A stretch of 64,000 nt of DNA from Candidatus Magasanikiibacteriota bacterium (GCA_016193335.1 JACPSK010000003.1:23739-87738); one strand, 5' to 3'; counted from the stretch's first letter, positions 3,916-52,519 are shown. Notes: generated by a model from the letters alone, not told the origin. Program-made: numbers and translations.

Positions 3916-3962
3916 ATTTTTACAAAATATAAAAACCCCGCGCATTGATTGCTTACGGGGTT
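3916..3962 (-). terminator. Rho-independent terminator for the GC-rich receiver-like gene (AACCCCG..CGGGGTT stem, T-run on minus strand)
   Basis: 7-bp GC stem. Minus-strand downstream sequence TTTTTATATTTTGTAAAAA. Confidence 0.55.
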
Positions 3963-4107
3963 CTTGAGAAGAGGAAATGTCCGGGTGAAGCTCGCGCGGT
4001 GCTTGGTTTTCGCACTTCCCTCGTGGCTTGCCCAACAGCCGTTTGATGATCCGAACGAGCGGACCGCGGTTTGGGCTTGCCGTGGGATACTCTAGATGAG
4101 CAGGGGT

Positions 4108-4407
4108 TTAATTTCTCGAGCTCGCCAAAGGGGCGAGCAGATCTGGCAAGGCCACGATATCCGCGGCCGAGAGCGTGAAGACCATGAATTCCCTTTTTTC
4201 CAGAGAGCCGAGCTCTCTGATCAGGGTCTCCCGGTTCATAAAGCGGGAATCCACCCGCTCGGCGACGATCACGGCGACCAGGCCTGTCTCACGACGGGCG
4301 GTCTCCAGAGCGTCTTTACTCTCAGAGGCACAGAACACATCCCAGCCATGCTTGCGCAAGAGCCGGGTGAGTCCGTAGCCTCCGTTGTCAATAACGAGAA
4401 TTTTCAT
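4108..4407 (-). CDS. Atypical receiver-domain protein (pseudo-receiver: DN instead of DD pair, Glu at predicted phospho-acceptor position), GC-rich gene
   Basis: MKILVIDNGG...VAVIVAERVD..., 99 aa. Strong RBS AAGAGGAGG 6 nt upstream. About 58% GC against a roughly 42% background. Confidence 0.6.
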   Translation of the reverse strand: MKILVIDNGGYGLTRLLRKHGWDVFCASESKDALETARRETGLVAVIVAERVDSRFMNRETLIRELGSLEKREFMVFTLSAADIVALPDLLAPLASSRN

Positions 4408-4569
4408 CCCTGCCTCCTCTTAAGCGCGAGGAAGCACCCGGACAGTGCTTGGAATATAGCATGGTTAAGCCAATTTGTCAATCATAAGCATTGATTTTTT
4501 CGTTGATTTTAGATAGTATAAGCCTGTATCGGGCTTAATTTAGTGGTTAGCATTTTCTCTTCTTGATTT

Positions 4570-5379
4570 ATGAACAGTGTTCAAGCACTTGTTCTCGGCA
4601 TCATCCAAGGATTGACTGAATTTTTGCCGATTTCATCTTCCGGCCATCTTATTTTTGTACCTCGTTTATTCGGCTGGGCTGACCAAGGCTTAACATTTGA
4701 CGCGGTGGTTCATCTCGGTTCTTTGTTTGCGGTACTTGTGTATTTTCGCTCTCGGATTCTAAGCATGCTCGGGTCTTTGTGCACCAGATCTGTTGGTGAA
4801 TCAGACCGCAAAGAACGCAAGCTTGCTTTTTTACTGGCAGTCTCCATAGTGCCGGCGGCTTTGGGCGGTTTGTTTTTTCAAAATTGGATTGAAAACTCTT
4901 TACGTTCTGTTTTTATTATCTCTTTCAGCCTCATATTCTGGGGCATAATTTTGGGATGGGCAGATAGATTGGCGATAAAAAGAAATAAATCTTTTTCTTT
5001 GGACAATTTGTCTTTCTCCAAAACAGTCTTGATTGGAATTGCTCAGGCTTTGGCTCTGATCCCCGGCACCAGCAGGTCTGGAGTAACGATGAGCGCGGGT
5101 TTATTTCTTGGCCTCGACAAAAAATCAGCCGCTGATTTTTCTTTTCTCATGAGCGTGCCGATTATCGCCATAGCAGGGGCCTTAAAAATATTCGATCTGG
5201 TTCGAACCGGTTGGGGACATATCCAGATTTTGCCTTTGGGCATTGGGTTTTTTGCCGCGGCCCTGAGCGGCTTTCTCGCCATTGCTGGTTTAATGAAGAT
5301 TATTCAGAAATGGAGTTTTATGCCTTTTGTGGTTTATAGGGTAGCAATGGGAATTTTGATACTTGTTTTTTTCGTGTAA
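4570..5379 (+). CDS. uppP: Undecaprenyl-diphosphatase (BacA/UppP)
   Basis: LGIIQGLTEFLPISSSGHL and PGTSRSGVTMSAGL motifs. 8 TM. Confidence 0.9.
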   Translation: MNSVQALVLGIIQGLTEFLPISSSGHLIFVPRLFGWADQGLTFDAVVHLGSLFAVLVYFRSRILSMLGSLCTRSVGESDRKERKLAFLLAVSIVPAALGGLFFQNWIENSLRSVFIISFSLIFWGIILGWADRLAIKRNKSFSLDNLSFSKTVLIGIAQALALIPGTSRSGVTMSAGLFLGLDKKSAADFSFLMSVPIIAIAGALKIFDLVRTGWGHIQILPLGIGFFAAALSGFLAIAGLMKIIQKWSFMPFVVYRVAMGILILVFFV

Positions 5380-5385
5380 TTTTGT

Positions 5386-6801
5386 ATGACTGAACAGGCT
5401 TTATTCAAGTCAATATACGCGGTGTCAAAGACACAAGGAGTTGAAGTGTACGCGGTTGGCGGCTATGTGCGCGATACCGTGCTTGGCATTCCGTGCAAAA
5501 AAGATATTGACTTTGTTGTTCTTGGAAGCGGTCTGCTGTTTGCCAAGGCTTTTGACGAATATATGAAAGGCCAGGGAACGCTTATTGAATTTAATGATTT
5601 TGACACCGCGCGTTATGTTTTGAATGATCTTGAAATAGAGTTCGCCGGGGCCCGTTCCGAAGCTTATGATCATCAATCACGCAAACCCAGGGTTAAACCG
5701 GCTTCTTTGGAAGAGGATCTCTCGCGACGTGATTTTACGGCGAACGCGATGGCCCGCAAAGTGATTGCGTCTGGTTTGAGCAAGACTATTGTGGATCCTT
5801 ATTTGGGTTTGAGCGATTTAAATAAAAAAATGATAAGGACTCCCCTTGACCCGGACGAGACTTTTTCCGAAGATCCTCTGCGGATTCTGAGAGCCGCCCG
5901 GTTCGCGGCTCAGCTTGAGTTTGACATTGATAAGCACACGTACGATTCCCTTGCTAAAAATAAAAAACGCCTGGCCATTGTTTCGGCTGAACGAGTTAAA
6001 AATGAATTTTTTAGATTGCTTGCCGCGGCCAAACCCTCAGTCGGTTTGTGGATTTTGTATGAGAGCGGCGTTTTGGGAGAATTTTTGCCAGAAGTTTCAG
6101 CTCTCCAGGGCGTGGAGGAAATGAAAGGGTATTTGCATAAGGATAATTTATCGCATTCTTTTAAAGTGGTGGACAATATCGCGGAAATGAGCGATAAAGT
6201 CCTCTTGCGCTATGTGGGTTTGGTTCATGATATTGGAAAGCCGGACACCAAGCGTTTTGAAGAGAAGAGAGGATGGACTTTTGACATGCATGATCACTTG
6301 GGAAAAAAAATGGTCCGCCTCATAGGCAAGAGACTTCGGATGAGTAAAGAGGAAGTTGATTATGCCTGCCATTTGGTACGCTGGCATCTCTATCCCATAG
6401 CGCTTATGGATAAGGGAGTTACGGATAGTCCGGTAAGAAGACTTATCGTCAATCTTAGAGAAGACCTGGCGGATCTGCTCATTCTTTGCCGCGCGGATAT
6501 CACCACTGGAAATCAAGAACGATTGCGGCGTCGTTTAAAAAATTATGATATTTTGGAAGATCGAATCAAAGAAGTTCTGGATAAAGACAAGCTTCGCGCT
6601 TTTCAATCTCCTTTGAGGGGCGAAGAGATCATGAAACGCTGTAGTTTAAAGCCAGGACCTACCGTAGGGAAAATAAAAAAAGCCATTGAAGAGGCTATTT
6701 TGAACGGGCGTATCGTAAATGAATATCAGGCGTCTGTGGAATATTTTGAGAAGATAAAAGATGAATATCTCGCCGAAGCAGAGACCTGGGAGAACGTATA
6801 G
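5386..6801 (+). CDS. cca: CCA-adding tRNA nucleotidyltransferase / poly(A) polymerase family with HD domain
   Basis: GGYVRD..DIDF head domain, RDFTANAM, HDIGKP HD motif. Confidence 0.85.
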   Translation: MTEQALFKSIYAVSKTQGVEVYAVGGYVRDTVLGIPCKKDIDFVVLGSGLLFAKAFDEYMKGQGTLIEFNDFDTARYVLNDLEIEFAGARSEAYDHQSRKPRVKPASLEEDLSRRDFTANAMARKVIASGLSKTIVDPYLGLSDLNKKMIRTPLDPDETFSEDPLRILRAARFAAQLEFDIDKHTYDSLAKNKKRLAIVSAERVKNEFFRLLAAAKPSVGLWILYESGVLGEFLPEVSALQGVEEMKGYLHKDNLSHSFKVVDNIAEMSDKVLLRYVGLVHDIGKPDTKRFEEKRGWTFDMHDHLGKKMVRLIGKRLRMSKEEVDYACHLVRWHLYPIALMDKGVTDSPVRRLIVNLREDLADLLILCRADITTGNQERLRRRLKNYDILEDRIKEVLDKDKLRAFQSPLRGEEIMKRCSLKPGPTVGKIKKAIEEAILNGRIVNEYQASVEYFEKIKDEYLAEAETWENV

Positions 6802-6839
6802 CTGTGTTTTTGGTTTTTTAAAAATCAGAGTTCTCGGTT

Positions 6840-7170
6840 TAGGTAGCCGCGGGCGTCCGTCATCCTCACTTTGCGCAGGGGAGCCCGCGCCGTGAATTGG
6901 AATCCGAACGCCCGTGGCCGAGCTGTGTCCGCGAATAGTTAAGTACGAAGCCCGTAAAGAGGTTTGTGGCGAGGGTGAAGGGGAGGCGGCCTGGCCACTC
7001 TCGTTACGGTCTCTGCACTTTTTTTTCCGCGAAGCAGCGCAATCTAGCCTAACGCGTTTAACTCTCTCTTGTCAAATAGCTACCTTGAATACAGTGCGAA
7101 TGAAGAAGATTAATGGGCGCCAATGGAGCGCGGGGCATGAGGTCTGAACCCTGTCCTGTCTCAATCTACT
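6840..7170. ncRNA. GC-rich (about 57%) non-coding islet, candidate structured RNA (class not identified)
   Basis: 330 bp with no credible ORF (the 77-aa ORF at 6914..7147 has compositional-artifact character) and sharp GC contrast with flanks. Minus strand carries TTGACA-N18-TAGGCT promoter-like element near 7045-7075. Not matched to tmRNA, RNase P or SRP consensus by eye. Confidence 0.25.
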
Positions 7171-7236
7171 GTTTTTTGTATTGTCTGTAGATCTGCGGTA
7201 TCCGTACTATCCGTATTTTGCCTAAGTCAGGTTTGC

Positions 7237-7959
7237 GTGCTATACTGTGTATATATGATTGAGCTTTGGAATGAGCTTTTGTACAGGCCTTTATTTAATA
7301 TTCTTGTCTGGCTGTACAACAATTGGGCTGAACAAAATTTGGGCTGGGCGGTGGTGTATCTAACGCTTATGTTGCGCGTTTTGCTTCTTCCTTTTACCTT
7401 CATTACTGAACGCAATGCCATTAAGAACAGAACTCTCGTGGCAGAGCTCAGACGTATAGACAAAAGTTACCAGGGGGATCCGATCCTTAAAAAAGAAGAA
7501 ATACGCAAAACCCTGAGAAAGCGCAAAGTGCGTCCTTGGTCCAGTGCTTTTGAACTTGGCATTCAGCTTTTGGTGCTTATTTTGCTGTATCAGGTTTTTT
7601 TGCAAGGTATCAGCGGAGAGAAAGTAAAAGTGCTCAAATCTTTGTATTATTGGGTGGATTTCCCGGGTCTGATTAATACTATTTTTTACGGCTTTGATTT
7701 GGCGGCCAAGTACGACTGGCTCTGGGCCGGAATGGTAGCTTTCTTTTTCGCCGCTTACATCTACCGTGAATACCGGCATGCCAGGCGCGTTCTTCATAAG
7801 AGTGATTTGCTTTATTTCATTTTTTTCCCTACGGGCATATTCTTAACTCTCTGGTATTTGCCCATGGTTAAATCCTTGTTTGTCTTGACATCTTTGTTGT
7901 TTTCTGCTATAGTGCATCGCTTAATTCGGGTTTTTTTGAAGCCACCAAAAAAAATTTAG
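7237..7959 (+). CDS. yidC: Membrane protein insertase YidC/Oxa1 (short form); likely start at 7255
   Basis: LGWAVVYLTLMLRVLLLPF, matching the YidC GWAIILLTIIVR motif, then RKVRPWSSAFELGIQLLVLILLYQ, matching the NPlgGClPmLiQ/PIfiALY region. Confidence 0.75.
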   Translation: MLYCVYMIELWNELLYRPLFNILVWLYNNWAEQNLGWAVVYLTLMLRVLLLPFTFITERNAIKNRTLVAELRRIDKSYQGDPILKKEEIRKTLRKRKVRPWSSAFELGIQLLVLILLYQVFLQGISGEKVKVLKSLYYWVDFPGLINTIFYGFDLAAKYDWLWAGMVAFFFAAYIYREYRHARRVLHKSDLLYFIFFPTGIFLTLWYLPMVKSLFVLTSLLFSAIVHRLIRVFLKPPKKI

Positions 7960-28564: not shown

Positions 28565-28615
28565 CCGTCCGTGTTCCCTGGGCCTATAAAGAGGTCCAGG
28601 GACCGGACGGGTATG
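28565..28615. terminator. Strong inverted repeat (about 15-bp stem CCGTCCG.GTTCCCTGG / CCAGGGACCGGACGG) between convergent uvrB and the small peptide gene
   Basis: Near-perfect inverted repeat directly after the uvrB stop. No clear T-run. Confidence 0.5.
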
Positions 28616-28625
28616 TTCGGTCGGC

Positions 28626-28718
28626 TTATGGAGCCGCCAGCGCGTAGACGAGAAGTGGCACGGCCACAGCGAAGATTGTGACGACGAGGGTGCTGATCAA
28701 TTTTTCACGCTTGCCCAT
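28626..28718 (-). CDS. Small hydrophobic peptide (30 aa, MGKREKLISTLVVTIFAVAVPLLVYALAAP) on a GC-rich islet
   Basis: GGGAG RBS 7 nt upstream. Upstream TTGACA-N17-TACACT promoter near 28812-28840 gives about 95-nt 5'UTR. Single TM helix. C-terminal LVYAL resembles KdpF-like and type I toxin-like peptides. Confidence 0.35.
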   Translation of the reverse strand: MGKREKLISTLVVTIFAVAVPLLVYALAAP

Positions 28719-28860
28719 GGTGTTCTCCCTATCCTGCGTTACGAACCCGGAAGCCTTTGCGCCGAACCGCTTTTGCGATGTCAGCTCAATGGACCGAACG
28801 GACAAAGTGTAGAGGGGGGGCGGCATTTTGTCAATGGTTTTTTTACATGGTTGCTGTGTA

Positions 28861-51101: not shown

Positions 51102-51734
51102 ATGCGCTTATTCAATAGACTCTCAGCGTTAAAAGATAAACATCCTGCTCTTTTTGAATATCTTCCTGCAAAGGAAGTTTTTCCTCATGATTATTTCATG
51201 GATCGTTTTGTCCTTCGTTTTTTGCCTGCTCGCAGCACCCCGAACGGGATCACCATTCTGAGAATTTGTCTTACTCCTTTTGTTTTTTTGGTAACTTTGT
51301 ATGGCCATTATCGTTTCGGAGTTATTTTATTTTTACTGACCGCTTTTACGGACGCCATTGATGGCTCTTTGGCCCGTACCCGAAATAAAATAACTCGTTT
51401 TGGCATGCTTTTTGATCCTTTGGCCGATAAACTTTTGATCGGGTCCATGGTTTTGCTTTTGGTGTTTCGCTATCTGAATGTTTTCCTTGGCATCGCGATT
51501 TTGGGGATTGAAATTATATTTATTGTCAGTGCTTTGGTCGCCAAAATAAAATTTAAAACAGTAAAGATGGCCGACCGATGGGGGAAGCTCAAAATGTTTT
51601 TTCAAGTTATTGCCATGTCTTTGATCATGATAGCCTTACTCATTGATTTTCCTTATTTATTGACCGTCGCGGCATGGGTCTTTGGTTTGGCGATCGGATT
51701 TGCTATATTAAGTCTATTTAGACATGGTATATAA
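51102..51734 (+). CDS. CDP-alcohol phosphatidyltransferase family protein
   Basis: DAIDGSLARTRNKITRFGMLFDPLADK, the D-G-x2-A-R-x8-G-x3-D-x3-D motif. Confidence 0.8.
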   Translation: MRLFNRLSALKDKHPALFEYLPAKEVFPHDYFMDRFVLRFLPARSTPNGITILRICLTPFVFLVTLYGHYRFGVILFLLTAFTDAIDGSLARTRNKITRFGMLFDPLADKLLIGSMVLLLVFRYLNVFLGIAILGIEIIFIVSALVAKIKFKTVKMADRWGKLKMFFQVIAMSLIMIALLIDFPYLLTVAAWVFGLAIGFAILSLFRHGI

Positions 51735-51747
51735 AAGTCCTTTATAA

Positions 51748-51773
51748 CGAATGAACCCGTCCGACGATTCGTG
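51748..51773. terminator. Bidirectional hairpin CCCGTCCGACGATTCGTGGGACGGG between convergent CDP-alcohol phosphatidyltransferase paralogs
   Basis: About 12-bp stem with one mismatch, A/T flanks. Confidence 0.5.
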
Positions 51774-51781
51774 GGACGGGC

Positions 51782-52519
51782 TTAAAAACGAGCTCTGCGC
51801 CGTGCCGCTCTCCTGAGTTTGATCTTGTGCCAGAGGCTGGCAAGACCAAAAAGAAGGGCGACTGCAAAGAACAAAGCCGCCAGGATAACGAAGAACCCGT
51901 GCAGCTCTGGCATGGCAAGAACCAGAGCCCCGACCCCGCAGGTCTCGGCGAGCATCTTGATCTTGCCCGAGCCAGGGGCTTTCAAGCTTATGCTTGAATG
52001 GCCTGCTTTTGCCCGGATTAAATCTTGTACTCTCACGACCGTGAGGAGGATTTCCAAGGCAACAACGCCGAGAGCGAGTGGCAGAGCGATGATGCTCATC
52101 ACCAAGCCAAGTGTGCTCACCTCCTGGAATCGGGCCGCGCTGAGCGGCAAGAGGGCCAAAACCGTGATGATGAGGCCCTTGTCGCAGAGGGCGTCAACCG
52201 CGGCTCCGATGACTTCGTCGTCGCCGCAGTTATGGTACACCTTGCGCCAGTGCGCCAAGCGTCCGTCAAACCAATCGGTGAGGGATGCTACCGCGAAGAG
52301 CGCGAAAGCCTCCCATACACGGCCGCTCGCCGCGATGAAAGCAATGGGCACCGCGAGGACTACTCGCGACAGCGAGACCCAATTGGGCCTGATGTAAGCC
52401 CAGAGTTTCCAAGGGCCTACTTTTTCATCAAGCCTTGCGTTCAATGCTTTGACGCGGGCCATAAGCTGACCGCTGAACGGCCGCACGGCCGCGCTCGCGC
52501 TTTTAAGCACTTGATCCAT
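51782..52519 (-). CDS. CDP-alcohol phosphatidyltransferase family protein, GC-rich paralog (about 57-60% GC)
   Basis: DWFDGRLAHW....GAAVDALCDK variant of the CDP-OH-P-transferase motif (the Arg position is His). Compositionally foreign. Confidence 0.65.
   Translation of the reverse strand: MDQVLKSASAAVRPFSGQLMARVKALNARLDEKVGPWKLWAYIRPNWVSLSRVVLAVPIAFIAASGRVWEAFALFAVASLTDWFDGRLAHWRKVYHNCGDDEVIGAAVDALCDKGLIITVLALLPLSAARFQEVSTLGLVMSIIALPLALGVVALEILLTVVRVQDLIRAKAGHSSISLKAPGSGKIKMLAETCGVGALVLAMPELHGFFVILAALFFAVALLFGLASLWHKIKLRRAARRRARF

What the first reader, a model, noticed from the sequence alone, without database searches (positions are those of the whole stretch)
6840..7170. Compact GC-rich non-coding islet between cca and yidC, candidate structured RNA
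About 330 bp at roughly 57% GC is embedded in 35-45% GC DNA. It has no ORF of plausible composition and a promoter-like TTGACA-N18-TAGGCT on the minus strand. Several short helices are visible, for example GCGGGCTCCCCTGCGC.

In AT-rich genomes, housekeeping RNAs such as RNase P RNA, tmRNA, SRP RNA and 6S stand out exactly like this. The length fits RNase P RNA or tmRNA. I could not match the P4 consensus (GGAAAGUCCGGGCUCC...ACAGAANCCGGCUUA), a tRNA-like tmRNA end or the SRP domain IV motif by eye. It may therefore be a divergent or novel RNA.
Basis: partly seen in the sequence, partly recalled or inferred. Interest (0 to 1): 0.6.

Follow-up and report, generated by a model that had tools for sequence, protein, structure and literature searches.

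The report
Orphan two-hairpin RNA-like islet
The GC-rich stretch between cca and yidC is real, non-coding and strongly self-pairing, and probably gives a ~220-base RNA read from the opposite strand, but it matches no known RNA family and has no detectable relative, so it stays a modest, lineage-specific curiosity.

Summary
Positions 6840-7170 are 55.6% GC and the core 6826-7040 is 60.5%, in a 44% GC window. The segment lies between a CCA-adding enzyme gene and a small yidC in a Candidatus Magasanikbacteria (CPR) genome.

The minus strand carries TTGACA-N18-TAGGCT (7075-7046). That pattern is enriched in the window, 11 matches against 2 expected. The 215-228 nt downstream fold into two rod-like hairpins, 6920-7040 and 6845-6919 (MFE -93 kcal/mol, z -4.5).

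It is not RNase P RNA, tmRNA, SRP RNA, 6S RNA or a tRNA: there was no Rfam match even at E<=10 and no ARAGORN call. No credible ORF exists.

No homologue was found in any related locus (13 resolved cca-yidC junctions, cca 62-73% identical), in one metagenome pattern scan, in viral contigs, or in phage and plasmid records.

In relatives the same slot holds a minus-strand tRNA operon ending in a GC-rich rod hairpin. Two pairs of relatives show compensatory changes in those rods, so this slot does encode selected minus-strand RNA structure.

Best reading: a tRNA-less, lineage-specific small RNA unit of that kind, function unknown. The main rivals are a long cca terminator or 3'UTR on the plus strand, and a decaying remnant. 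Interest is low to moderate.

The parts
7046..7075 (-). Sigma-70-type promoter-like element TTGACA-N18-TAGGCT. The predicted transcription start is near 7039.
   Evidence: Exact pattern match. TTGACA-N16-19-TAnnnT occurs 11 times in the window against 1.97 expected, with 0 of 100 shuffles reaching 11. By my reading against the ORF list, about eight of the other ten matches, representing about seven distinct sites, lie just upstream of an ORF. The -10 hexamer is weak (3 of 6), and the stricter consensus scan did not list this site.
6920..7040 (-). Hairpin 1: a 121-nt imperfect rod. It has a closing stem, an internal loop (A-run against UUAACUAUU), a long inner stem and a C-rich apical loop.
   Evidence: MFE and centroid structures are identical. 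As expected for a hairpin, model R1 also matches it weakly on the plus strand.
6975..6989 (-). Apical loop of hairpin 1, CCGCCUCCCCUUCAC. It is unpaired and C-rich and contains CCUCC, which is complementary to a GGAGG-type ribosome-binding site.
   Evidence: Loop coordinates. That it acts as a pairing surface is inference only.
7019..7026 (.). A8 on the minus strand, where it lies in the internal loop of hairpin 1. On the plus strand it is T8 directly after the inner stem, which looks like a terminator for cca.
   Evidence: T8 runs are common in the window (48 found, 33 expected), so this is weak evidence alone.
6845..6919 (-). Hairpin 2: a 75-nt rod at about 69% GC with apical loop CUCC (6880-6883). 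It starts 44 nt after the cca stop codon and is followed by ACC.
   Evidence: It occupies the same relative place as the GC-rich trailer rods of the tRNA operons in relatives.
6820..6844 (-). Unstructured 3' tail ACCUAAACCGAGAACUCUGAUUUUU. The U5 run is the only candidate 3' end on the minus strand, and there is no canonical terminator.
   Evidence: (no terminator-like site found).
5386..6801 (+). cca (CCA-adding enzyme or poly(A) polymerase family with an HD domain), convergent with the minus-strand unit. Gene callers place the start at 5446.
7218..7959 (+). yidC with its own promoter TTGCCT-N17-(TG)TATACT at 7218-7246. The likely start is ATG 7257, so the islet is not in the yidC leader.
   Evidence: The same promoter-to-ATG layout occurs in relatives.

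Best explanation
The islet is a single-copy, non-coding, independently transcribed minus-strand unit.

Proposed mechanism:
- RNA polymerase starts near 7039 from TTGACA-N18-TAGGCT (inferred).
- It makes an RNA of about 220 nt that folds into two rod-like hairpins, 6920-7040 and 6845-6919 (predicted).
- The RNA ends somewhere between the base of hairpin 2 and the U5 run at 6820 (inferred).

The unit sits in the slot where related Magasanikbacteria carry a minus-strand tRNA operon. That operon runs: TTGACA-N17-TAnnnT promoter, one to four tRNAs, a 60-90-nt GC-rich rod, then a terminator next to the cca stop codon. I read the islet as a tRNA-less, lineage-specific version of that RNA operon.

Hairpin 2 is the positional counterpart of the trailer rod. 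It would act as a stable 3' structure that stops or protects the transcript and buffers it against convergent cca transcription. Hairpin 1 is the cargo. Its only exposed surfaces are the C-rich loops (CCGCCUCCCCUUCAC and CUCC), which could pair with G-rich ribosome-binding sites.

Shown: composition, promoter-pattern enrichment, predicted fold, absence of coding capacity, positional correspondence, and selection on RNA structure at this slot in relatives.

Inferred: transcription, RNA ends and any trans-acting function.

It is not RNase P RNA, tmRNA, SRP RNA, 6S RNA or a tRNA.
For: Structure and strand:
- The minus strand folds at -93 kcal/mol, z -4.5; the plus strand gives z -2.1.
- The minus-strand fold has 67 pairs with 7 G-U; the plus-strand fold has 64 pairs with 5 G-U.

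Promoter: the pattern is enriched 11 against 2 expected, mostly upstream of genes.

Composition: 60-69% GC is kept in a 44% GC genome.

Coding: no ORF, Pfam hit or homologue, and gene callers left the gap empty.

Relatives:
- L001, L003, L012/L030, L013, L014, L020, L023 and L006/L031 carry minus-strand tRNA or tRNA-like genes plus GC-rich rods in the same cca-yidC gap. In L001, L003, L012, L013, L014, L020 and L023 an outward-facing TTGACA-type promoter precedes them.
- These structures are under selection on the minus strand. L006/L031 have 73 predicted pairs, 9 with compensatory double changes and none broken, including conserved G-U pairs.
- The L013/L023 trailer rod has 4 compensatory pairs of 12 in its basal helix.

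Calibration: L006 and L031 have 88% identical cca proteins but only 77% identical RNA regions. Failing to align the islet at 62-73% cca identity is therefore expected even if it is functional.

A second unit in the same window, 28565-28834, has the same layout: a minus-strand TTGACA promoter, a short cargo, and a GC rod abutting the stop codon of a convergent gene.
Against: No homologue exists, so there is no covariation for the islet itself. Same-species contigs are 100% identical and uninformative.

The -10 hexamer TAGGCT is weak, and the stricter promoter scan did not list the site.

No canonical terminator follows hairpin 2 on the minus strand.

Strand preference from G-U pairs is slight, 7 against 5.

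Some coding regions of the window score similarly in the GC-corrected MFE scan.

The minus-strand promoter lies about 180 bp from the yidC start, against 55-90 bp in relatives, so it may not be the same ancestral promoter.

Relatives L002, L016, L008 and L026 have no insert at all, so whatever sits here is dispensable.

No expression data are available.
Confidence: 0.45

Rival explanations
1. The structure works on the plus strand, as the 3'UTR and intrinsic terminator of cca. The inner stem of hairpin 1 (about 6933-7018), followed directly by U8 (7019-7026), would terminate cca transcription about 220 nt after the stop codon. Hairpin 2 would be a stabilising 3'UTR structure.
For: T8 lies immediately 3' of a very stable stem on the plus strand.

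The window lacks the short A/T-flanked bidirectional terminator that relatives have right after the cca stop, so cca needs a terminator somewhere here.

The plus strand also folds well, at -90.5 kcal/mol.
Against: The plus-strand z-score is only -2.1, against -4.5 for the minus strand.

The stem is far longer than this genome's usual terminators, which have 12-17-bp arms, and the terminator scan did not call it.

T8 runs are frequent, 48 in the window against 33 expected.

An outer helix closes around the T-run, which is unusual for a terminator.

This reading does not explain the enriched minus-strand promoter pattern.

The two readings are not exclusive: convergent overlapping transcripts are possible.
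Confidence: 0.2
2. The islet is a decaying, functionless remnant. The ancestral minus-strand tRNA operon lost its tRNA genes in this lineage, or foreign GC-rich DNA was inserted. What is left is a relic promoter and leftover hairpins.
For: No tRNA or T-loop motif remains.

No conservation was found with any relative.

The slot is empty in L002, L016, L008 and L026, and holds unrelated genes in L004, L005, L007, L027 and L028, so its content is dispensable and turns over fast.

The -10 hexamer is weak.
Against: A neutral relic in a 44% GC genome should lose both its GC content and its pairing. Instead it shows 60-69% GC, 67 pairs and z -4.5.

Rods at this slot are demonstrably under structural selection in two other sublineages.

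No donor sequence was found in phage, plasmid or viral collections.
Confidence: 0.25
3. The islet is a highly divergent housekeeping RNA (RNase P RNA, tmRNA, SRP RNA or 6S RNA) that the Rfam models miss in CPR bacteria.
For: It is a GC-rich non-coding islet in an AT-richer genome. Hairpin 1 is a rod with a roughly symmetric internal bubble, loosely like 6S RNA.
Against: No match to any of these families even at E<=10 with permissive filters. No tmRNA or tRNA-like end.

The two separate rods lack P4-type long-range pairing, a GNRA-capped domain IV and any tag ORF.

An essential RNA would be conserved in relatives at 62-73% cca identity, yet nothing in the related loci matches.

At about 200 nt split into two domains, it is too short for RNase P RNA or tmRNA.
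Confidence: 0.03
4. The islet is a palindromic mobile or repeat element (MITE, REP or ERIC-like) inserted between the convergent units.
For: Hairpin 1 is a long imperfect palindrome with terminal inverted repeats (GCTGTGTCCGCGAA / GCTGCTTCGCGGAA). The slot is hypervariable.
Against: No second copy or fragment exists anywhere in the 64 kb or in related loci. No match was found in the collections searched.
Confidence: 0.05
5. The islet encodes a small protein.
For: There is a 77-aa GTG ORF on the plus strand (6914-7147) and a 19-codon GTG ORF on the minus strand.
Against: No Pfam hit and no homologue; even the identical sequence is absent from gene calls on same-species contigs. No convincing ribosome-binding site is present. 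The ORF spans the hairpins and the minus-strand promoter.
Confidence: 0.02

Closest known systems
Trailer or spacer structures of bacterial tRNA operons, including functional 3' external transcribed spacers such as 3'ETS-leuZ of E. coli (from my own knowledge)
   Same: The islet occupies the position of a minus-strand tRNA operon in relatives. Those operons carry a structured, non-tRNA GC-rich rod between the last tRNA and the terminator. That rod is under structural selection in L006/L031 and L013/L023.
   Different: No tRNA is present in the window unit. There are two rods rather than one. There is no sequence or covariance-model similarity to the relatives' rods.
C-rich-loop base-pairing sRNAs of Firmicutes (RsaE/RoxS type; Rfam RsaE; from my own knowledge)
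   Same: It is a small non-coding RNA of one to two hundred nucleotides. Unpaired C-rich motifs sit in the hairpin loops (CCUCCCC and CUCC) and could mask G-rich Shine-Dalgarno sequences.
   Different: No Rfam match. It is about twice the length. There is no canonical terminator, the phylum is different, and no target or conservation evidence exists. This is a functional analogy only.
Rho-independent, bidirectional terminators and REP-like stabiliser hairpins
   Same: A GC-rich hairpin lies between convergent genes, with T8 after the inner stem on the plus strand.
   Different: The stems are 3-6 times longer than this genome's own terminators. The terminator scan did not call it. An outer helix encloses the T-run. 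It is single copy.
6S RNA
   Same: Hairpin 1 is a rod with a central internal loop and a terminal loop.
   Different: Hairpin 1 is 121 nt with a 12-bp closing stem, against roughly 150-200 nt for 6S (from my own knowledge). A second, separate hairpin is present. There is no Rfam 6S match at E<=10 and no conservation.

Membership tests
Bacterial RNase P RNA (Rfam RNaseP_bact_a/b) | Match to the covariance model; conserved P4 pseudoknot strands; length of about 330-400 nt with a multi-helix core | tested here: not met
   No hit at gathering thresholds or at E<=10 over 6600-7400. The fold is two independent rods of 121 and 75 nt with no long-range pairing.
tmRNA | tRNA-like domain (acceptor stem, T arm, 3' CCA end) plus a tag-peptide reading frame | tested here: not met
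   ARAGORN found no tmRNA in the window. There was no Rfam hit. No T-loop motif occurs in the islet.
Bacterial SRP RNA (4.5S or Bacillus type) | Domain IV with a GNRA tetraloop and conserved symmetric and asymmetric loops; match to the Rfam model | tested here: not met
   No Rfam hit at E<=10. The apical loops are a 15-nt C-rich loop and CUCC, not GNRA.
6S RNA | A single rod of about 150-200 nt with a large central bubble; match to the Rfam 6S models; conservation across relatives | tested here: not met
   No Rfam hit. There are two separate hairpins. No homologue was found in relatives. Binding to RNA polymerase cannot be tested here.
tRNA or tRNA pseudogene | Cloverleaf structure with a T-loop (GTTCRANYC); ARAGORN or Rfam tRNA score | tested here: not met
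Independently transcribed bacterial small non-coding RNA | Own promoter | tested here: inconclusive
   TTGACA-N18-TAGGCT is present and the pattern class is enriched 11 against 2 expected. However, the -10 hexamer is weak and the stricter scan did not list the site. Transcription cannot be tested with these tools.
Independently transcribed bacterial small non-coding RNA | Defined 3' end or terminator | tested here: not met
   No terminator-like site on either strand by the scan. Only a U5 run lies 20 nt after hairpin 2.
Independently transcribed bacterial small non-coding RNA | No coding capacity | tested here: met
Independently transcribed bacterial small non-coding RNA | Conserved sequence and structure, with covariation, in related genomes | tested here: not met
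   No homologue was found by blastn or nhmmer, by covariance model R1 with default filters and with filters off, or by pattern scans. The nearest available relatives have only 71-73% cca identity, so the test has little power.
Trailer-rod RNAs of the Magasanikbacteria cca-yidC tRNA operon (described here) | Minus-strand position between the yidC-proximal promoter and the cca stop codon; GC-rich rod of 60-90 nt | tested here: met
   Hairpin 2 (75 nt, about 69% GC) lies 44 nt from the cca stop. Compare the rods in L001, L012, L013, L014, L020, L023 and L006/L031.
Trailer-rod RNAs of the Magasanikbacteria cca-yidC tRNA operon (described here) | Sequence or model similarity to a rod family with demonstrated covariation (L006/L031 model R2; L013/L023 model R3) | tested here: not met
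   R2 and R3 match only their own source loci. Neither matches the islet.
Intrinsic (Rho-independent) terminator | GC-rich stem-loop immediately followed by a U-tract | tested here: inconclusive
   On the plus strand, the inner stem of hairpin 1 is followed directly by U8. However, the stem-loop is about 85 nt, the scan did not call it, and T8 runs are common.
MITE or REP-type repeat | Multiple dispersed copies | tested here: not met
   The element is single copy in the 64 kb and absent from related loci. The whole genome was not available.

The most novel reading that the evidence does not exclude
The cca-yidC slot of Magasanikbacteria would encode a fast-evolving class of stable, rod-shaped small RNAs. 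They would be born in, or co-transcribed with, a tRNA operon. The window's islet would be a free-standing two-rod member that has shed its tRNAs and acts in trans, for example by masking G-rich ribosome-binding sites with its C-rich loops or as an RNase III-processed regulator. That would make it one of the first regulatory sRNAs proposed for a CPR bacterium.
Probability: 0.12. Interest if true: 0.5.

Novelty: new member of a known kind. Interest (0 to 1): 0.25.

Why it matters
CPR/Patescibacteria have tiny genomes, and to my knowledge few if any characterised regulatory RNAs. A transcribed, structured orphan RNA would be a small addition to that sparse list.

The more useful result is contextual. 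The gap upstream of yidC in this clade is a hypervariable minus-strand RNA locus. It holds odd tRNAs, a tRNA-like RNA with a giant extra arm, and GC-rich rods with compensatory changes. Standard tRNA and Rfam tools only partly annotate it.

For the islet itself, the practical message is negative. It should not be annotated as RNase P RNA, tmRNA, SRP RNA or 6S RNA. Its function cannot be resolved without expression data or closer genomes.

Tried and rejected
- Rfam at gathering thresholds on the window and on 8 loci, and at permissive E-values on the islet and on 5 loci. Only ordinary tRNAs in relatives were found; nothing matched the islet.
- ARAGORN on the window and on all loci. No tRNA or tmRNA in the window.
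- blastn, blastn-short and nhmmer of the 435-bp gap against the syntenic gaps of relatives. Chance-level hits only.
- Covariance model R1, built from the islet fold, against 30 loci with default filters and against 9 loci with filters off. Only noise, E>=1.2.
- Models R2 (L006/L031 rod) and R3 (L013/L023 rod) against the window. No hit in the islet.
- Two-anchor loop pattern in the metagenome contigs: zero matches.
- Loop patterns in viral contigs: one chance match inside a coding region of a 65% GC phage.
- blastn against phages and plasmids: none.
- Same-species Logan contigs: 100% identical, no information.
- A second protein-guided scan of the metagenome contigs. It gave more relatives but none closer than 73%, and L030 proved identical to L012.
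- Coding test: six-frame translation, Pfam, and a protein search with the 77-aa ORF. Negative.
- Pairwise Smith-Waterman comparison of rods against shuffles, and MAFFT/RNAalifold on four rods. No robust alignment. The by-eye similarities between L013, L014, L020 and L023 were confirmed only for L013/L023.
- A full z-score scan with shuffles timed out. It was replaced by a GC-regressed MFE scan.
- An attempt to characterise Shine-Dalgarno usage by picking best-scoring starts was biased by design. It is not used beyond noting AAGGAG upstream of the called cca start.
- Two literature searches returned nothing specific to CPR non-coding RNAs.

Full report
**Context.** The window is about 44% GC. 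The protein encoded at 5386-6801 has PolyA_pol, RNA-binding and HD domains, so it is a CCA-adding enzyme. The next gene (7237/7257-7959) is a small YidC. The best-annotated homologues of the cca product come from Candidatus Magasanikbacteria and Parcubacteria, that is CPR/Patescibacteria. Apart from 100% identical copies in a few Logan assemblies, the nearest homologue among 5.8 billion proteins is only 71-72% identical, and a partial metagenome locus reaches 73%. The organism therefore has no close sequenced relative, which limits all comparative tests below.

- Positions 6840-7170 are 55.6% GC, the core 6826-7040 is 60.5%, and hairpin 2 (6845-6919) is about 69% (measured on 6845-6918). The two flanking genes are 42-45%.
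- In 200-bp windows the local maximum is 0.615, against a mean of 0.440 (sd 0.053). It is one of the three highest GC peaks in the 64 kb.

**Is it coding? No.**
- The only sizeable ORF is a 77-aa GTG frame on the plus strand (6914-7147). It has no Pfam match and no homologue at all.
- Gene callers left the cca-yidC gap empty on three independent same-species contigs.
- Downstream of the minus-strand promoter there is no ORF of 30 aa or more.

**Is it a known RNA? No.**
- Rfam 15 found nothing in the entire window at gathering thresholds.
- With permissive filters at E<=10 over 6600-7400 it found only two noise hits, a microRNA and an archaeal snoRNA.
- ARAGORN found no tRNA or tmRNA in the 64 kb, and T-loop motifs are at chance level with none in the islet.
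- RNase P RNA, tmRNA, SRP RNA, 6S RNA and tRNA are each tested and not met.

**Anatomy.**
- The minus strand of 6815-7042 folds at -93.0 kcal/mol. The MFE and centroid structures are identical, z = -4.5, and 0 of 200 dinucleotide shuffles fold as well.
- Hairpin 1 (6920-7040, 121 nt) has a 12-bp closing stem, an internal loop (A-run against UUAACUAUU), a long imperfect inner stem and a 15-nt C-rich apical loop, CCGCCUCCCCUUCAC.
- Hairpin 2 (6845-6919, 75 nt) has a CUCC apical loop and is followed by ACCUAAACCGAGAACUCUGAUUUUU.
- The plus strand folds almost as well in absolute terms (-90.5 kcal/mol) but with z only -2.1.
- The minus-strand fold has 67 pairs with 7 G-U; the plus-strand fold has 64 pairs with 5 G-U. 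The strand call from structure alone is therefore weak.
- In a 120-nt sliding scan of the whole window the islet has the third lowest MFE. It ranks 11th of 4260 after regressing out GC. It is in the top 0.3%, but some coding segments score alike.

**Promoter and terminator evidence.**
- TTGACA-N16-19-TAnnnT occurs 11 times in the window against 1.97 expected (0 of 100 shuffles reach 11). By my reading against the ORF list, about eight of the other ten matches, representing about seven distinct sites, lie just upstream of an ORF. The class is mostly genuine promoters, which lends credibility to the 7075-7046 site even though its -10 hexamer is weak and the stricter consensus scan skipped it.
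- yidC has its own promoter, TTGCCT-N17-TGcTATACT at 7218-7246. It sits so close to the likely ATG at 7257 that the islet cannot be a yidC leader.
- On the minus strand no canonical terminator follows hairpin 2.
- On the plus strand the inner stem of hairpin 1 is followed directly by T8 (7019-7026), so it could terminate cca transcripts.
- Three points weaken the terminator reading. T8 runs are frequent, 48 found against 33 expected. The stem is several times longer than this genome's ordinary A/T-flanked bidirectional terminators. An outer helix encloses the T-run.

**Comparative evidence for the islet itself is negative.**
- Same-species contigs are 100% identical across the gap.
- I resolved 13 distinct cca-yidC junctions with cca 62-73% identical. 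None contains anything similar to the islet by blastn or nhmmer, or by a covariance model of the islet fold with default filters or with filters off.
- A two-anchor loop pattern found nothing in the metagenome contigs.
- Loop patterns in viral contigs gave one chance match inside a coding region of a 65% GC phage.
- Phage and plasmid collections gave nothing.
- There is no second copy in the window.

**What sits at the same place in relatives is informative.**
- In L001, L003, L012 (= L030), L013, L014, L020 and L023 the cca-yidC gap (350-780 bp, GC-enriched) holds a minus-strand transcription unit.
- That unit starts from a TTGACA-N17-TAnnnT promoter 55-90 bp upstream of yidC.
- It continues with one to four tRNA genes of varying identity (Trp; Gln; Ser-Cys-Thr plus one more; Thr; Leu-Gly), several of them atypical.
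- Then comes a 60-90-nt GC-rich rod hairpin, and in most loci a short bidirectional terminator abutting the cca stop.
- L006 and L031 carry a tRNA-like RNA, a small hairpin and a rod in the same place.
- L002, L016, L008 and L026 have no insert. L004, L005, L007, L027 and L028 have an acyltransferase gene there instead. L029 has that gene followed by a minus-strand tRNA-Leu. In L017 and L024 other genes follow cca.
- The slot is thus a hypervariable, dispensable RNA locus read from the minus strand.

**These RNAs are under structural selection.**
- L006 and L031 have 88% identical cca proteins and 77% identical RNA regions. They share 73 predicted pairs, of which 9 carry compensatory double changes and none is broken, including conserved G-U pairs that fix the minus strand.
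- L013 and L023 share a tRNA-Thr and a trailer rod. The rod's basal helix has 4 compensatory flips in 12 pairs, with conserved flanks GGAGGG and CCAACC.
- This calibration shows that at 62-73% cca identity an RNA of this kind would already be unalignable. The negative searches therefore do not argue strongly against function.
- However, models built from either rod family (R2, R3) match only their own source loci and not the islet. Four other rods could not be aligned at all. I therefore cannot file the islet as a member of either rod family. The correspondence is positional and architectural only.

**Interpretation.**
- The best-supported reading (confidence about 0.45) is an independently transcribed minus-strand non-coding RNA of about 220 nt. 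It would be the tRNA-less counterpart of the relatives' RNA operon.
- Hairpin 2 would be the 3' trailer rod next to the convergent cca gene. Hairpin 1 would be the cargo.
- A second unit in the same window has the same layout. At 28565-28834 there is a minus-strand TTGACA-N17-TACACT promoter, a 30-codon hydrophobic ORF, and a near-perfect GC rod 9 nt after the uvrB stop.
- The only exposed sequences in the islet RNA are C-rich loops containing CCUCC and CUCC. They could pair with G-rich ribosome-binding sites, as the C-rich motifs of RsaE/RoxS do (my knowledge). This is an analogy, not a test.
- Rivals are a plus-strand cca terminator/3'UTR (about 0.2, and not mutually exclusive with the best reading) and a decaying relic of a tRNA operon or insertion (about 0.25). 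The retained 60-69% GC and 67 pairs argue against the relic. Smaller rivals are a repeat element (0.05), a divergent housekeeping RNA (0.03) and a small protein (0.02).

**Verdict.** The feature is real and probably RNA-level, but it is an orphan with no detectable homologue, no covariation and no expression data. I rate it a new member of a known kind (a lineage-specific small structured RNA or tRNA-operon-type trailer), interest 0.25. The surrounding comparative picture, a hypervariable minus-strand RNA slot with unusual tRNAs and covarying rods, is arguably more interesting than the islet itself.

Noticed in passing
window 28565-28834: A second GC-rich intergenic islet lies just after uvrB. 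The minus strand has TTGACA-N17-TACACT (28834-28806). It is followed by a 30-codon hydrophobic ORF, MGKREKLISTLVVTIFAVAVPLLVYALAAP, with a GGGAGAA ribosome-binding site, and then a near-perfect GC rod (28565-28612) 9 nt after the uvrB stop. The minus strand folds with z -3.3. This is a candidate small membrane peptide or type I toxin-like gene.
   Followed up: partly
L006 5490-5822 (-) and L031 3935-4262 (-): These loci share a homologous tRNA-like RNA that ARAGORN and Rfam both miss. It has an 8+4-bp acceptor-like stem, a type-II D arm, a 6-bp 'anticodon' stem with a 6-nt loop (UUCAUC against UUAACC), an extra arm of roughly 85-100 nt and a normal T arm. A small hairpin and a GC rod follow. 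There are 73 predicted pairs, 9 compensatory and none broken, at 77% nucleotide identity.
   Followed up: partly
L012 4566-5087, L013 4644-4972, L014 4712-4960, L020 3891-4061, L023 3842-3915, L001 5585-5659, L003 6410-6483 (all minus strand): Relatives carry a hypervariable minus-strand tRNA operon between cca and yidC, and many of its tRNAs are atypical. ARAGORN places anticodons at positions 36-39 and reports one two-base 'anticodon'. One tRNA has a ~28-nt insert in the anticodon loop (L012 4989-5087). One has a 12-nt anticodon loop (L014, about 4712-4780).
   Followed up: partly
L013 4542-4626 (-) and L023 3756-3835 (-): The trailer rod after tRNA-Thr(GGT) is conserved between these two genomes. 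Four compensatory base-pair flips occur in its basal helix, and the flanks GGAGGG and CCAACC are conserved. Model R3 finds it only in these two loci.
   Followed up: yes
window 7218-7260; L012, L013, L001, L003 upstream of yidC: yidC appears to be leaderless or nearly so. An extended -10 element (TGcTATACT) ends 6-10 nt before the ATG in the window and in relatives. Gene callers chose an upstream GTG (7237) that overlaps the -10 element.
   Followed up: partly
window 1-64000: ARAGORN and Rfam detected no tRNA gene or any other Rfam family anywhere in the 64 kb.
   Followed up: yes
window 3931-4480: A 60% GC segment contains a 99-aa minus-strand ORF (4108-4407) with no Pfam match. It has its own TTGACA-N17-TATATT promoter (4481-4453). 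Unannotated ORFs of 160-200 aa occupy the same place, between a response regulator gene and bacA, in relatives L012, L014, L016 and L020.
   Followed up: no
window 51102-52519: Two CDP-alcohol phosphatidyltransferase genes lie tail to tail. The minus-strand copy (51782-52519) sits in the highest GC peak of the window (0.645), unlike its neighbour. This may reflect horizontal acquisition.
   Followed up: no
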